A stretch of DNA of 64,000 nucleotides from Escherichia coli (GTDB lineage: Bacteria > Pseudomonadota > Gammaproteobacteria > Enterobacterales > Enterobacteriaceae). Position 1 is the first letter of the stretch, and the number at the start of each line of letters is the position of its first letter. The notes under the pieces are model-generated. The model made no database searches. It had not been told where the DNA came from and saw only the letters and a list, made by a program, of their open reading frames with translations. A program made the position numbers and the translations under genes. The DNA lies in NCBI RefSeq assembly GCF_003790525.1, contig NZ_CP033635.1. One strand, 5' to 3'. Of this stretch, positions 50,206-52,715 are shown piece after piece.

Positions 50206-51864
50206 TTACTGACTCAGACTGTTTATATTTTTCTGGAGTTGTTGCTTTGCCTGCATAATGCGCCAAGCCTCACTTTCTTCCGGTGGAACATACCGGCCAC
50301 CAACAACCAGTGGCAGAGAAAGCACTTCGGATGAGTTTTTCGTCATCCTCCGTGTCCGTTCACGACCTTTAGCAAACCGGATCAGCTTGTGTCTGATGTA
50401 GTTACTTACCTCTGGGCTTATTTCCATCGGGAAACTGCTCAACCCATCAGGCCATTCACCGAATTTCTCCCTGAAAGTGTGAGCGCACCATCCATCACTG
50501 ACTGGACGCCCCAGTGAGGCACGCTGGCGCTGATAAAATTTGATCTGACTCCACCAGGCCTGTTTCTCTGCCTTCGTGGACTGATGCTGATTTTTACCCA
50601 GCTTATTAAGTTTGCGGCTAGTGTCAGTATCAACGTCTTCACCTCGCAGCGGCTTGTGTCCACATTTCGGGCAAACATAGACGCCAGCTGGCTTCATGTA
50701 GTGGCATTGAGGGCATTCATGTGGCAATTTTTCGGCCCGTTCCTCAACTGCGCGGCGCGTGCTTTCCTCCATGCCGTCAGACTTACCGGGAAGATCGTCG
50801 TACTCGATTGAATCCGGATAACCCAGACGGTGCACGGTGCCGCTGTGATCGAAGATAAGGCAGGACGCTTTACCCGGTGCGGTGCGAAGTCCACGCCCGA
50901 GTGCCTGCAACCAGCGAATTTCGCTTTTTGTTGGCCTGGCGTAGATGATGCAACGAACGTCACTATCGAATCCGGCTACCAGAACGCCCACACTAACGAT
51001 GATTTTCGTTGCACCGGTTTCAAAGCGGTGAATGATGGTCTGGCGCTCATCTACCGGAGTGTCGGCGGTCATTACCTCAGCGTTAACACCCGCCAGGTTA
51101 AACTGGATTGTCAGATAATTGGCGTGAGCTACGTTGACGCAGAAAGCGATGGTAGGTAAATCCCGACCATTCTCCAGCCAGTTCTGTACGATGTCGCCCA
51201 CCAGCGTAGAGCCGCACATGATTTCAGCCAGCTGCGTTTCGTTGTAATCCCGGCCGTACTCAAGCGAAGATGTGGTTTTAACACCTTTCAGATCCGGCTT
51301 AGTTGGCGCGTAAAATTCGTATTTACTCAGATCGCCACGCTGGATTAACTCGCCGATGGTGGTCGGCTTAATCAGTCGGTCATAGTATTTGCCCAGGAAC
51401 GGAGAAAACGGAGTACCCGACAGGCCAATCACCTTTACGCCTTTGCCGCGCAGACGTTCGATATCCTTCAGGATGCGTTTTTTACGCAGGTGCGCTTCGT
51501 CGATAATCAGCAGATCGATATTTTCAGGAAAAACACGACGAATAAGCGTGTCAGCGCTGGCAATCTGAATTTTCCGGTCCGGATCGTAGTTCGGGTGATC
51601 CGCCCAGATATAACCGATTTCATCTCCAGGTAAACCATACTGCACGAACCGATTAGCCGTCTGACCAATCAGGATGGTGTACGGAACACAGAACAGAACA
51701 CGCATACCACGGCTGACAAAACCAGCAACTATGAAGGCTGCCAGACCCGTTTTACCGCTACCTGTTGGCGAGTAAACCATGAAGGTGTCGTTTGCCTTCC
51801 AGTCACGGCGCAACATGTTTAGCGCTCGTTCCTGTGCAAAATTCGGCGTGATTGTCAGCTGCAT
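50206..51864 (-). CDS. SF2 (DEAD/DEAH-box) helicase with C-terminal zinc ribbon
   Basis: 552-aa; Walker A SPTGSGKT, DEAH box LLIIDEAH, C-terminal CPQCHY...CPKCGH. Confidence 0.8.
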   Translation of the reverse strand: MQLTITPNFAQERALNMLRRDWKANDTFMVYSPTGSGKTGLAAFIVAGFVSRGMRVLFCVPYTILIGQTANRFVQYGLPGDEIGYIWADHPNYDPDRKIQIASADTLIRRVFPENIDLLIIDEAHLRKKRILKDIERLRGKGVKVIGLSGTPFSPFLGKYYDRLIKPTTIGELIQRGDLSKYEFYAPTKPDLKGVKTTSSLEYGRDYNETQLAEIMCGSTLVGDIVQNWLENGRDLPTIAFCVNVAHANYLTIQFNLAGVNAEVMTADTPVDERQTIIHRFETGATKIIVSVGVLVAGFDSDVRCIIYARPTKSEIRWLQALGRGLRTAPGKASCLIFDHSGTVHRLGYPDSIEYDDLPGKSDGMEESTRRAVEERAEKLPHECPQCHYMKPAGVYVCPKCGHKPLRGEDVDTDTSRKLNKLGKNQHQSTKAEKQAWWSQIKFYQRQRASLGRPVSDGWCAHTFREKFGEWPDGLSSFPMEISPEVSNYIRHKLIRFAKGRERTRRMTKNSSEVLSLPLVVGGRYVPPEESEAWRIMQAKQQLQKNINSLSQ

Positions 51865-52475
51865 TGTGCTGCCTCCCCATGGTTCAGCGGGAGGCGCCTG
51901 AAATGGTGACCGCGATGAGACTTTGTTCTTCCAGCAATAACAGCATAAACACTACCGTGATCAAACCCGGCACTAATTAGCGCCTTTTTCCCGCAAAAGG
52001 TTTGCTCTTCCCTGGTCGCAATATTTGTGGCGACAATCAGGCCCTTAAATTGTTTGTTGTTCGCCCCCTGAGAATTATTCAGCCCGGTGTGAATAGAATG
52101 CTGAATGTTTTCGCTATGGCTAACCCACTCCAGATTGGATGCATGGTTATTCAGCTTGTTGCCGTCCTTATGGTTCACTTCAGGGTGGTTGTAAGGGTTG
52201 CTGCAAAAAGCCAGCGCTACCAGACGGTGTACGGCAAAAGTTTGGCGATTACGTTTGTAGCTCAGGTTAACGGTTTTATATCCATCCCGGCGCACTCTTC
52301 CCTTGAGGAACACGCCACGAATTTGGCGAATAAAAAATTCCGATTCAGCAATTCGATTAACCCCACGGATGCGTCCCGCCGAGCTAACGAGGTAAGCATC
52401 ACCATACGGAGCAACAGGAACCGGAAGCCATTTTTCACCATCAAAACTGTTAACCATAAAATCACCTCTGAACAT
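51855..52475 (-). CDS. HNH homing-endonuclease-like protein (NUMOD4-like N-terminus + HNH motif)
   Basis: GEKWLPVPVAPYGDAYLVSSAGRIRGV...; HNH core HKDGNKLNNHASNLEWVSHSEN; alternative start at 52457. Confidence 0.8.
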   Translation of the reverse strand: MFRGDFMVNSFDGEKWLPVPVAPYGDAYLVSSAGRIRGVNRIAESEFFIRQIRGVFLKGRVRRDGYKTVNLSYKRNRQTFAVHRLVALAFCSNPYNHPEVNHKDGNKLNNHASNLEWVSHSENIQHSIHTGLNNSQGANNKQFKGLIVATNIATREEQTFCGKKALISAGFDHGSVYAVIAGRTKSHRGHHFRRLPLNHGEAAQCS

Positions 52476-52715
52476 TTACATCTGGACGTCTAGGCGTCCG
52501 CACATCTTCTGGTATTTCCCCTTTACAGAGATCTACCTAACCTATGTACCCGTCTTCTTGGAAAAGCCTGTTCCAGCGCTTCGCGCTAAAAGATCAACAC
52601 CGCCCCCTTTCCCCCATAAACATTTAGGGGGTGGTAAATACATCCAGACATATAGACGTCTAAATATTTTTACCATTTTCAATCAGCCACCGGACACCTT
52701 TAAGCCCGGTACCAA

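What the first reader, a model, noticed from the sequence alone, without database searches (positions are those of the whole stretch)
51855..52715. HNH homing-endonuclease-like gene overlapping the helicase start, preceded by a structured 240-bp intergenic region
An HNH ORF overlaps the helicase start by 10 bp. The upstream gap (52476-52715) contains a GGACG-tctagg-CGTCC hairpin, an AGACGTCT palindrome (52652-52659) and a CCCCC...GGGGG hairpin. Free-standing HNH genes in phages are selfish elements; the palindromes could be its target or remnant insertion site, or part of the replication origin.
Basis: partly seen in the sequence, partly recalled or inferred. Interest (0 to 1): 0.5.

Follow-up and report, generated by a model that had tools for sequence, protein, structure and literature searches.

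The report
HNH gene flanked by MetJ-like operators
An optional, selfish-type HNH nuclease gene sits just in front of a prophage's replication helicase, and the "palindromes" beside it are two arrays that match the host methionine repressor's (MetJ) binding sites as well as real met-gene operators do, which suggests this phage region is wired to host metabolism.

Summary
An intact 200-aa I-HmuI-type HNH endonuclease gene (52457-51855, minus strand; the longest ORF starts at 52475) overlaps the helicase ATG by 10 nt. It is an optional cassette in the leader of an Eru1-type replication operon (97-aa gene, intergenic region, slot, SF2 helicase, P4-type primase). Near-identical backbones carry a PD-(D/E)xK-fold ORF or nothing in the slot. 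The HNH replaced a 19-codon leader ORF and reads through the helicase ribosome-binding site in the same frame. All 17 distinct loci of the Enterobacterales HNH subfamily examined (down to about 50% identity) sit at this position. dN/dS is about 0.1. Distribution on the helicase tree is patchy. This fits a free-standing homing-type endonuclease.

The upstream "palindromes" are not insertion scars or origin hairpins. AGACGTCT and GGACG..CGTCC are the core boxes of two four-box arrays (52638-52669, 52476-52507). Under the published MetJ metbox matrix they score 33.6 and 25.5 bits, matching the E. coli metJ/metB (31.2) and metF (24.9) operators. One array shares an exact 18-mer with the metF operator. 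Such arrays occur in 12 of 15 distinct HNH-bearing alleles and in none of 22 HNH-less alleles. Twenty of those 22 carry TrpR-operator-like palindromes instead. Binding and function are untested.

The parts
51855..52457 (-). HNH endonuclease gene (200 aa; the longest ORF extends to the ATG at 52475). Domains are NUMOD4 (aa 8-66), the HNH motif (H96, N108, N117) and an I-HmuI-like C-terminal DNA-binding region.
   Evidence: dN/dS is 0.09-0.10 against three alleles.
51855..51878 (-). Junction and coupling segment. The last codons of the HNH gene (..GEAAQCS*) encode the helicase SD (GGGGAGG) and ATG. This stretch belongs to the backbone and in HNH-less relatives is the 3' end of a 19-codon leader ORF (MKTTSQNYYLITAGTAQCS*).
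   Evidence: Identity to phi467 runs up to 51878. The leader ORF was found in 17 HNH-less loci. The C-terminal ..EA.QC tail is conserved across the HNH subfamily.
52462..52468 (-). Shine-Dalgarno GAGGTGA of the HNH gene, 4 nt upstream of the ATG at 52457.
   Evidence: Read from the sequence. The RefSeq start agrees.
52476..52507 (.). MetJ-operator-like array B, four 8-bp boxes (plus strand TTACATCT|GGACGTCT|AGGCGTCC|GCACATCT), 25.5 bits.
   Evidence: It shares the exact 18-mer TTTACATCTGGACGTCTA with the E. coli metF operator and matches 15/16 to the metJ/metB operator.
52527..52577 (-). Conserved core (..CTGGAACAGGCTTTTCCAA..GGTACATAGGTTAGGTAGATCTC..). It is shared by all alleles, including Stx phage TL-2011c. 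Its HNH-proximal edge (52517/52518) is a recurrent recombination joint. Function is unknown.
52575..52587 (-). Small hairpin AGCGC-GAA-GCGCT. The phi467 and Fels-1 alleles have AGTGC-GAA-GCACT, a compensatory double change.
52598..52631 (-). The G-tracts are present in every allele. The CCCCC partner occurs only in window-type HNH alleles.
52638..52669 (.). MetJ-operator-like array A, four boxes (plus strand ATACATCC|AGACATAT|AGACGTCT|AAATATTT), 33.6 bits.
52688..52711 (-). Hairpin TACCGGGC-TTAAAGGT-GTCCGGTG immediately after the stop of the 97-aa gene. The 8-nt loop is nearly invariant (TTAAAGGT) and the stems covary across relatives. It lies in the backbone, not in the HNH cassette.
   Evidence: 39 occurrences, 18 stem variants by the script's tally.
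52716..53009 (-). 97-aa gene of unknown function (phrog_852). It always lies upstream of this intergenic region and helicase, and is present but unannotated in TL-2011c.
50206..51864 (-). SF2 DEAD/DEAH helicase, 66.7% aa identical to Eru1A of Stx phage TL-2011c, translationally coupled to the HNH gene.
   Evidence: Llarena et al. 2021, PMC8044961.
49236..50204 (-). P4-alpha-type Zn-ribbon/Toprim primase (Eru1B-like).

Best explanation
SHOWN. The ORF encodes an intact I-HmuI-type HNH endonuclease (probably a nicking enzyme) that is kept by purifying selection. It is an optional cassette in the leader of an Eru1-type phage replication operon. It replaced a 19-codon leader ORF, together with a terminator-like hairpin and a stem-loop, and it reads through the helicase ribosome-binding site in the same frame as that leader ORF did. 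The same slot in near-identical backbones holds a PD-(D/E)xK-fold ORF or nothing. The cassette is bounded by two recurrent joints, the conserved core at 52517/52518 and the helicase start at 51878/51879.

INFERRED. The gene behaves as a free-standing homing endonuclease. During co-infection, or superinfection of a lysogen, it cuts HNH-less alleles near the slot. Recombinational repair then copies in the HNH cassette, using the conserved core and the helicase 5' end as homology arms. Reading through the helicase RBS would keep helicase translation coupled to the upstream ORF.

SHOWN. The upstream 'palindromes' are the core boxes of two four-box tandem arrays that fit the host MetJ operator as well as the genuine metJ/metB and metF operators do. 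The arrays flank the conserved core. They are confined to HNH-bearing alleles, while HNH-less alleles carry TrpR-operator-like palindromes at the same places.

INFERRED. Host MetJ with S-adenosylmethionine binds these arrays. Either it gates read-through transcription into the HNH-helicase-primase genes (array B ends 19 nt from the HNH start codon), or the arrays titrate MetJ once the phage DNA is multicopy.
For: HNH identity and catalytic residues.
Intact ORFs in all 12 alleles translated, with dN/dS of 0.09-0.10.
Optional presence in near-identical backbones: window versus phi467 is 99.3% identical up to 51878 and aligns again from 52518; window versus STECUZB006 is 100% identical over 52683-52919.
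Frequency in E. coli: only 6 of the 86 complete genomes that match any part of this region carry the HNH gene.
Species survey: 11 species representatives found with the helicase all lack it.
Position: all 17 distinct subfamily loci examined sit directly upstream of and overlapping the helicase start.
Patchy placement on the helicase tree.
Allele swap confined to 51800-52549 between two otherwise ~99.5% identical E. coli prophages.
MetJ arrays: scored with the published matrix and thresholds (PMC3228920). They are the only two hits in 64 kb and beat all shuffles. The positive control on 20 kb of K-12 finds exactly the metJ/metB and metF operators at 31.2 and 24.9 bits. Array B shares an exact 18-mer with the metF operator.
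Association: arrays are present in 12 of 15 distinct HNH+ alleles, including independent IMG/VR loci, and in 0 of 22 HNH- alleles. In 370 kb of unrelated phage DNA no array exceeds 19.6 bits.
TrpR-like boxes: 14-16/18 matches to the operator consensus, found only in this intergenic region. Genuine trpO, aroH and trpR operators score 17, 15 and 14.
Against: No cleavage, homing or MetJ-binding data exist.
No target site can be named.
No sigma-70 promoter was detected at or between the arrays, so the classical promoter-occlusion mode of MetJ is not evident.
Three HNH+ lineages lack the arrays: Yersinia L012/L015 (which have TrpR-like boxes), L036, and L047/L048.
The HNH-array association could be partly inherited linkage, because the sites lie within 300 bp of the gene and the alleles are related.
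Strict positional conservation down to about 50% identity, always coupled to the helicase, is also what a functional accessory of the replication module would show.
The metal-binding Asp74 of I-HmuI is Asn here.
Confidence: 0.5

Rival explanations
1. The HNH enzyme, and in other alleles the PD-(D/E)xK protein, is a working accessory of the replication module. For example, it could be an origin-specific nickase that helps the SF2 helicase and primase start replication at the conserved core.
For: The position is invariant and the gene overlaps the helicase start in every subfamily member, across E. coli, Salmonella, Serratia and Yersinia. Selection is purifying. I-HmuI is a nicking enzyme (established knowledge). 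The alternative cargo's best structural match is Bax1, the nuclease partner of the XPB SF2 helicase.
Against: Most relatives have no nuclease in the slot. This includes isolated phages (Yersinia phage YP3, Cronobacter phage ENT39118) and 11 of 11 species representatives. Helicases that are 95-99% identical occur with HNH, with the PD-(D/E)xK ORF, or with nothing. Two catalytically unrelated nucleases alternating at one site is typical of selfish endonucleases.
Confidence: 0.12
2. The HNH is a prophage-borne exclusion or defence nuclease (a moron). It benefits the lysogen or the phage by cutting incoming related phages, without necessarily being copied into them.
For: It is an optional accessory gene in a variable slot of a temperate phage. 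The PADLOC library lists such homing endonucleases. Marker exclusion by T4 Seg/Mob enzymes is an established precedent (PMC2790892, listed).
Against: The gene lies inside the CI-repressed early-right operon and no promoter of its own was detected, so expression in a lysogen is not expected. Cassette-sized allele swaps with sharp joints in identical backbones indicate that the gene itself moves.
Confidence: 0.13
3. The 8-bp arrays are not MetJ sites. They would be iterons or recognition sites for a phage protein (the HNH itself through its NUMOD domains, the 97-aa protein, or the helicase/primase), and the resemblance to metboxes is coincidental.
For: The arrays flank a conserved core next to G-tracts and an AT-rich stretch, in the place where an origin would be expected. 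They co-occur with the HNH gene. P4, whose primase is related, uses octamer iterons (my own knowledge, not checked here).
Against: The fit to the MetJ matrix is as good as that of real operators, and array B shares an exact 18-mer with the metF operator. Box sequences and box numbers differ between alleles while conformity to the matrix is kept. The 97-aa protein and the helicase are 99-100% identical between alleles with MetJ-like boxes and alleles with TrpR-like boxes, so neither covaries with box type. HNH-less alleles carry a different host-operator look-alike (TrpR) at the same places, which is hard to explain with phage-protein iterons.
Confidence: 0.2
4. The palindromes and hairpins are chance features of an ordinary intergenic region.
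For: Five-base-pair stems and 8-bp palindromes are individually common in 240 bp of sequence.
Against: Both arrays exceed all 100 shuffles of the 64-kb window. Nothing comparable occurs in 370 kb of unrelated phage DNA. The arrays recur in diverged alleles from four genera. The leader fold has z = -3.7.
Confidence: 0.02

Closest known systems
I-HmuI (Bacillus phage SPO1, PDB 1U3E), an intron-encoded HNH nicking homing endonuclease
   Same: Sequence homology is E=1e-17 over nearly the whole catalytic and C-terminal DNA-binding region. The H-N-N motif is conserved (H96, N108, N117 correspond to H75, N87, N96). The size is similar.
   Different: The gene is free-standing rather than inside a group I intron. 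It has a NUMOD4 N-terminus. Asp74 is Asn here. It sits in a temperate enterobacterial prophage in front of a helicase gene, not inside a DNA polymerase gene. Its activity and target are unknown.
Phage T4 MobE and the Seg enzymes: free-standing homing endonucleases inserted between essential genes ('intronless homing')
   Same: It is a free-standing HNH gene lodged between conserved genes of a DNA-metabolism operon. It is optional among close relatives and bounded by conserved flanks that can serve as homology arms. Alternative endonuclease families occupy the same site (PMC2790892, listed).
   Different: The host phage is a temperate lambdoid prophage. The gene has taken the place and reading frame of a leader ORF whose stop overlaps the downstream helicase start. 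It is linked to host-repressor-like operator arrays. Homing has not been demonstrated.
MetJ operators of E. coli metF and metJ/metB (tandem 8-bp metboxes, consensus AGACGTCT)
   Same: There are four phased boxes per array and the scores are equal or higher (33.6 and 25.5 bits against 31.2 and 24.9). Array B shares an exact 18-mer with the metF operator. Array B lies within the usual distance of a start codon.
   Different: The arrays are in a phage replication-operon leader, not at a methionine gene. No overlapping sigma-70 promoter was detected. Two arrays lie about 160 bp apart around a conserved core. Binding is untested.
Eru1 replication region of Stx2a phage TL-2011c (Llarena et al. 2021, PMC8044961)
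   Same: The architecture is the same: SF2 DEAD/DEAH helicase (66.7% aa identity) followed by a Toprim primase downstream of cI/cro. The conserved core and G-tracts are also present. The TL-2011c slot holds gp29, a homologue of the PD-(D/E)xK ORF, and gp29 overlaps the helicase start.
   Different: TL-2011c has no HNH gene, no MetJ-like arrays, and no TrpR-like box at 14/18 or better. The papers searched do not mention an HNH or endonuclease gene, nor any origin or intergenic features, in this region.
Host-repressor control of phage genes (LexA-controlled antirepressors in 186 and the Gifsy phages; Fur control of stx1)
   Same: The principle is the same: a temperate phage carries operator sequences for a host global repressor so that phage functions respond to host physiology. 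This comparison rests on my own knowledge, not on a paper read here.
   Different: Here the look-alike operators are for amino-acid repressors (MetJ and TrpR). They sit in a transcribed leader rather than at an obvious promoter, and the two types are interchangeable between alleles. I found no report of this in the library searched.

Membership tests
HNH homing endonuclease, I-HmuI/NUMOD4 type | HNH (beta-beta-alpha-metal) motif with the catalytic His and the conserved Asn residues | tested here: met
   Pfam HNH_3 at 2e-8. Alignment to 1U3E places H96, N108 and N117 at I-HmuI H75, N87 and N96; I-HmuI D74 is N95 here. H96 and N108 are invariant in 18 subfamily members; N117 is replaced by R in 2 of 18.
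HNH homing endonuclease, I-HmuI/NUMOD4 type | Accessory DNA-binding modules (NUMOD4 at the N-terminus, NUMOD/HTH-like at the C-terminus) | tested here: met
   NUMOD4 at 9e-9. The C-terminus aligns to I-HmuI residues 128-170. The Pfam I-HmuI_NUMOD-like hit alone is weak (E=0.029).
HNH homing endonuclease, I-HmuI/NUMOD4 type | Sporadic presence or absence at one genomic site among close relatives | tested here: met
   Full-length HNH-containing matches occur in 6 of the 86 E. coli complete genomes that match any part of the region. Backbones are 99% identical with and without the gene. Placement on the helicase tree is patchy.
HNH homing endonuclease, I-HmuI/NUMOD4 type | Site-specific cleavage or nicking of the endonuclease-less allele, and gene conversion (homing) | not testable with these tools
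   The evidence is indirect only: cassette-sized swaps with recurrent joints at 52517/52518 and about 51800-51878.
MetJ operator (metbox array) | Two or more adjacent in-phase 8-bp boxes, each at least one quarter of the consensus score, with the array total at or above the consensus score of 12.58 bits (criteria of Augustus & Spicer 2011) | tested here: met
   Array 52638-52669 has 4 boxes and 33.6 bits. Array 52476-52507 has 4 boxes and 25.5 bits.
MetJ operator (metbox array) | Score and sequence within the range of experimentally known operators, with a specific scan | tested here: met
   On 20 kb of K-12 the same scan returns only the metJ/metB (31.2) and metF (24.9) operators. There is an 18-mer identity to the metF operator. 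Background in 370 kb of phage DNA is at most 19.6 bits.
MetJ operator (metbox array) | Position at a regulated promoter, typically within about 75 bp of a start codon | tested here: inconclusive
   Array B ends 19 nt from the HNH ATG. However, the simple sigma-70 scan finds no promoter on the gene's strand in 52458-52715. Array A is about 180 bp from any start codon.
MetJ operator (metbox array) | Binding of MetJ with SAM, and repression in vivo | not testable with these tools
   No experimental data exist, and no report was found.
Replication-origin iterons bound by a phage initiator | Repeat type covaries with the cognate phage-encoded binding protein | tested here: not met
   The 97-aa protein is 99% identical, and the helicase 95-99% identical, between alleles with MetJ-like arrays and alleles with TrpR-like boxes. 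The variable helicase C-terminal patch does not track box type.
Eru1-type phage replication module | SF2 DEAD/DEAH helicase followed by a Toprim primase downstream of cI/cro, replacing lambda O and P | tested here: met
   The helicase is 66.7% aa identical to Eru1A of TL-2011c and the gene order is the same. The third gene differs: a 285-aa phrog_6204 protein here, where TL-2011c has eru1C (called DUF1367 in the paper, NinB/Orf in the GenBank record).
Known structured RNA (Rfam) or intrinsic terminator | Match to a curated covariance model, or a GC-rich stem followed by a U-run | tested here: not met
   There were no Rfam matches at E<=1 in 51500-53400 and no terminator-like site in the gap.

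The most novel reading that the evidence does not exclude
Temperate phages of the Eru1/Fels-1 replication type embed native-strength operators for host amino-acid repressors around a conserved core in the leader of their replication operon. HNH-bearing alleles carry MetJ arrays and HNH-less alleles carry TrpR palindromes. Under this reading, either expression of the HNH/helicase/primase genes responds to cellular SAM or tryptophan, or the multicopy phage DNA titrates these repressors and de-represses host methionine or tryptophan synthesis. The HNH cassette would travel with, and may depend on, the MetJ-type version.
Probability: 0.4. Interest if true: 0.75.

Novelty: new variant of a known kind. 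Interest (0 to 1): 0.55.

Why it matters
On its own, the HNH gene is one more free-standing phage endonuclease. Two things make the locus more useful than that.

First, it is a clean natural system for intronless homing in temperate enterobacterial phages. There are three allelic states (HNH, a PD-(D/E)xK ORF, or nothing) in near-identical backbones, with defined joints, and an endonuclease that has taken the place of the leader ORF that overlaps the helicase start.

Second, the upstream elements are indistinguishable in silico from MetJ operators, and their counterparts in HNH-less alleles from TrpR operators. If the host repressors bind, this would link the replication region to host methionine/SAM and tryptophan status. 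That region belongs to a phage family that includes the Stx2a phages of the O104:H4 and O103:H25 outbreaks, and published work ties its type to lysogen stability (PMC8044961). I found no report of such a link, and it can be tested directly with gel shifts and metJ/trpR mutants.

Tried and rejected
- Rfam scan of 51500-53400 at E<=1 found nothing.
- The sigma-70 promoter and terminator scan found no site in the gap on the gene's strand. My manual search for -35/-10 pairs around both arrays and in the conserved core, on both strands, was also negative. Readings of CTGGAACAGGCTTTTCC as a sigma-54 promoter or a DnaA box were rejected, because the spacing changes between alleles and the match is weak.
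- A lambda-like nutR reading (boxA-like TGATCTTTTA plus the GAA-loop hairpin) was rejected because the boxA-like part is not conserved in phi467 or Fels-1.
- I tested whether the helicase C-terminal variable patch (50200-50400) or the 97-aa protein covaries with box type, as an initiator-iteron pair would. It does not.
- My first framing of the repeats as 'TRGAYGTY iterons' was replaced by the metbox register after shifting the frame by one base.
- The role of HNH proteins that assist terminases (HK97-type) was considered and rejected. The gene sits in the replication module and is of the I-HmuI type, not the small terminase-associated HNH type.
- Homology between the arrays and the host met operators does not extend beyond the boxes, so capture of a host promoter fragment is not supported.
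- Literature searches for MetJ or TrpR operators in phages, and for HNH genes in Eru-type regions, found no prior description. Two papers on TrpR did not contain the operator sequence, so I verified trpO, aroH and trpR operators directly on E. coli genomes.
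Full report
**1. What is at the coordinates**

The region is the early-right operon of a lambdoid prophage, and every gene in it except cI is on the minus strand. In order, the features are:
- cI-like repressor, 53351-54118 (plus strand);
- cro-like gene, 53294-53022;
- a 97-aa gene of unknown function, 53009-52716;
- an untranslated gap;
- the HNH ORF, 52475/52457-51855;
- an SF2 helicase, 51864-50206;
- a P4-alpha-type Zn-ribbon/Toprim primase, 50204-49236.

RefSeq annotates the identical gene in E. coli TUM1886 as a 200-aa 'NUMOD4 domain-containing protein' that starts at the second ATG (window 52457). That ATG has a strong SD, GAGGTGA.

The helicase is 66.7% identical to Eru1A of Stx2a phage TL-2011c and the gene order is the same. 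This is therefore an Eru1-type replication module in the sense of Llarena et al. 2021.

**2. The HNH protein**

- Pfam finds NUMOD4 (9e-9) and HNH_3 (2e-8).
- PHROG 59, 'HNH endonuclease', scores 1e-40.
- The PADLOC homing-endonuclease model scores 1e-23.
- The only solved relative is I-HmuI, the SPO1 intron-encoded nicking endonuclease (1U3E), at E=1e-17 over residues 53-194.
- The catalytic His and both Asn residues are in place (H96, N108, N117). The Asp that precedes the His in I-HmuI is Asn here.
- All twelve alleles I translated are intact. dN/dS against three alleles that are 85-89% identical is 0.09-0.10.

The protein is functional and not a decaying remnant.

**3. It is an optional cassette in a defined slot**

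Phage phi467 is 99.3% identical to the window up to 51878, which is 14 nt upstream of the helicase ATG. It aligns again from 52518. Between those points, phi467, Fels-1 and several E. coli prophages carry a 122-aa ORF. YP3, VR50 and RM8352 carry no gene there.

All HNH-less alleles have a 19-codon leader ORF (MKTTSQNYYLITAGTAQCS*) whose stop overlaps the helicase ATG. The HNH gene ends in ...GEAAQCS*, reading through the same helicase SD and ATG in the same frame. The HNH has therefore replaced the leader ORF and reads through the helicase ribosome-binding site in its place. That this preserves translational coupling is my inference.

Frequency and recombination joints:
- Of the 86 complete E. 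coli genomes (out of 5426) that match any part of this region, only 6 have the HNH.
- Eleven species representatives found with the helicase all have the empty form.
- Against STECUZB006 the window is 100% identical over 52683-52919 and nearly identical on to 54300. It is heavily diverged over 52518-52682 apart from a conserved core.
- Against another E. coli HNH allele (L029) only 51800-52549 is diverged, by about 15%, while both flanks are about 99.5% identical.
- The conserved core and the helicase 5' end are thus recurrent recombination joints.

**4. The HNH lineage is tied to this position**

The close subfamily (50% identity or more) is confined to Enterobacterales. All 17 distinct loci I looked up have the HNH directly upstream of, and overlapping, the same helicase-primase pair. 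They come from E. coli, Salmonella, Serratia and Yersinia assemblies, from unnamed sequencing-run assemblies, and from IMG/VR contigs.

On a helicase tree the HNH-bearing alleles are interspersed with HNH-less ones at several depths. That sample is biased, because HNH+ loci were found through the HNH protein.

Two unrelated nuclease families or nothing, at one site, in near-identical backbones, is the signature of free-standing homing endonucleases such as T4 MobE and the Seg enzymes. It argues against an essential replication role.

**5. The upstream 'palindromes'**

Both GACGTC elements lie in segments that are specific to HNH-bearing alleles. They belong to phased tandem 8-bp units. Read in the right register, these units are metboxes, the 8-bp repeat (consensus AGACGTCT) bound by the host methionine repressor MetJ.

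I applied the published weight matrix and thresholds of Augustus & Spicer 2011, with these results:
- The whole 64-kb window contains exactly two arrays, both in this gap. They are 52638-52669 (four boxes, 33.6 bits, containing AGACGTCT) and 52476-52507 (four boxes, 25.5 bits, containing the GGACG..CGTCC 'hairpin' and ending 19 nt from the HNH ATG).
- One hundred shuffles gave a mean of 0.88 arrays per window and a best total of 20.5 bits.
- As a positive control, the same scan on 20 kb of E. coli K-12 returned only the metJ/metB operator (31.2 bits) and the metF operator (24.9 bits).
- Array B shares the exact 18-mer TTTACATCTGGACGTCTA with the metF operator and matches 15/16 to the metJ/metB operator. 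There is no homology outside the boxes.

**6. Association with the HNH, and the counterpart in HNH-less alleles**

Across 35 loci (218 kb), arrays passing the criteria occur only in this intergenic region of HNH-bearing alleles, apart from one marginal 13.5-bit hit.
- With the independent IMG/VR loci included, 12 of 15 distinct HNH+ alleles have at least one array (15.8-45.8 bits, up to six boxes). None of 22 HNH- alleles has one.
- In 370 kb of unrelated phage DNA, no array exceeds 19.6 bits.
- Box sequences and box numbers differ between alleles, while the fit to the matrix is kept.

At the same two places, 20 of 22 HNH-less alleles (and the Yersinia HNH+ allele) carry palindromes such as GTACTAGTTAAAGAGTAC. 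These match the TrpR operator consensus GTACTAGTTAACTAGTAC at 14-16 of 18 positions, and the GTACT...GTAC ends are invariant. Such matches occur nowhere else in the loci or in the window.

I recalled that consensus from memory and then anchored it on real operators. The trp operator sequence is present upstream of trpL in 5421 of 5426 E. coli genomes. In 8-kb K-12 regions, the only matches of 13/18 or better are the known aroH (15/18) and trpR (14/18) operators.

The leader of this replication operon therefore carries look-alikes of one or the other host amino-acid repressor operator, on either side of a conserved core. I found no report of this.

**7. Other anatomy of the gap**

- A hairpin sits directly after the stop of the 97-aa gene (52688-52711). 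Its loop, TTAAAGGT, is nearly invariant and its stems covary across relatives. Many relatives have two copies about 26 nt apart.
- G-tracts on the sense strand are present in every allele.
- A small hairpin, AGCGC-GAA-GCGCT, shows a compensatory double change in phi467 and Fels-1.
- The core ..CATAGGTTAGGTAGATC.. is conserved even in TL-2011c. It matches no Rfam family, sigma-70 promoter or terminator.
- The whole leader folds better than all shuffles (z = -3.7).

**8. Interpretation**

The best-supported reading has two parts.
- The HNH gene is a free-standing, homing-type (probably nicking) endonuclease cassette. It invades the helicase leader of Eru1-type phages by recombinational repair between the conserved core and the helicase start. 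It takes the leader ORF's place, which should keep helicase translation intact.
- The cassette travels with MetJ-operator-like arrays that host MetJ-SAM probably binds.

What that binding achieves is open. The options are a roadblock or gate on read-through into HNH-helicase-primase, control of the core element, or titration of MetJ by multicopy phage DNA.

One untested idea would explain the linkage. The HNH may target the TrpR-type box of HNH-less alleles, so that HNH-bearing alleles need a different but functionally analogous operator. The Yersinia allele, which has both the HNH and TrpR-like boxes, is a caution against this.

Rivals considered are an origin nickase, an exclusion nuclease, iterons for a phage protein, and chance. 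They are weighed in the structured fields.

**9. Verdict**

The HNH interpretation is supported. The 'target remnant or origin hairpin' reading of the palindromes is replaced by a more specific, testable one. The HNH gene alone is ordinary. The host-operator look-alikes linked to it are unexpected and worth an experiment.

Noticed in passing
window 52688-52711 (minus strand); also L005 1589-1646, L018 2578-2635 and others: A hairpin lies directly after the stop of the 97-aa gene. Its 8-nt loop is nearly invariant (TTAAAGGT) and its stems covary (18 stem variants by the script's tally, 39 occurrences). Many relatives have two copies about 26 nt apart. There is no Rfam match and the function is unknown.
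   Followed up: partly
L001 (phi467) oriented coordinates 3242-3259 and 3400-3417; the same positions in 20 of 22 HNH-less loci and in Yersinia L012: Palindromes that match the TrpR operator consensus at 14-16 of 18 positions flank the conserved core in HNH-less alleles, where the window has MetJ-like arrays. Genuine trpO, aroH and trpR operators score 17, 15 and 14 by the same measure.
   Followed up: partly
[not shown]
   Followed up: partly
HNH-less loci, e.g. L001 oriented 3865-3921, L018 2951-3007: A conserved 19-codon leader ORF (MKTTSQNYYLITAGTAQCS*) has a stop that overlaps the helicase ATG. It is preceded by a stem-loop (GGCTGGCAGCC..GGCCACCAGCC) and a terminator-like hairpin with a U-run (GGTTCTTCCTGGAAGAGTGATTTTT). 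This looks like an attenuation or coupling device for helicase expression. It is deleted in the window.
   Followed up: partly
window 52527-52577 and 52598-52616: The core ..GGTACATAGGTTAGGTAGATC.. is better conserved than the flanking genes and is kept in TL-2011c, whose helicase is only 67% identical. Sense-strand G-tracts next to it are present in all alleles. These could be an origin, an R-loop site or a G-quadruplex element. Nothing in the tools identifies them.
   Followed up: partly
window 50200-50400: The C-terminal ~65 residues of the helicase form a hypervariable patch. There are about 50-55 differences from phi467 and STECUZB006 within 200 bp, while the rest of the gene is 98-99% identical. 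The window-type patch recurs in L029 and L033 but does not track the HNH or the box type overall.
   Followed up: partly
window 52716-53009; L038 1644-1892: The 97-aa protein (phrog_852, no Pfam family) always precedes this intergenic region and helicase across genera. It is present but unannotated in TL-2011c. It may belong to the replication module rather than being a cII analogue.
   Followed up: no
window 47957-48379 and 48379-49236: Downstream of the primase lie a 285-aa protein of unknown function (phrog_6204) and a 140-aa ORF that looks like an antiterminator Q by eye. In the Salmonella HNH+ loci (L009, L010) a Pfam Phage_antitermQ protein follows the primase directly. TL-2011c has NinB/NinG at this place.
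   Followed up: no
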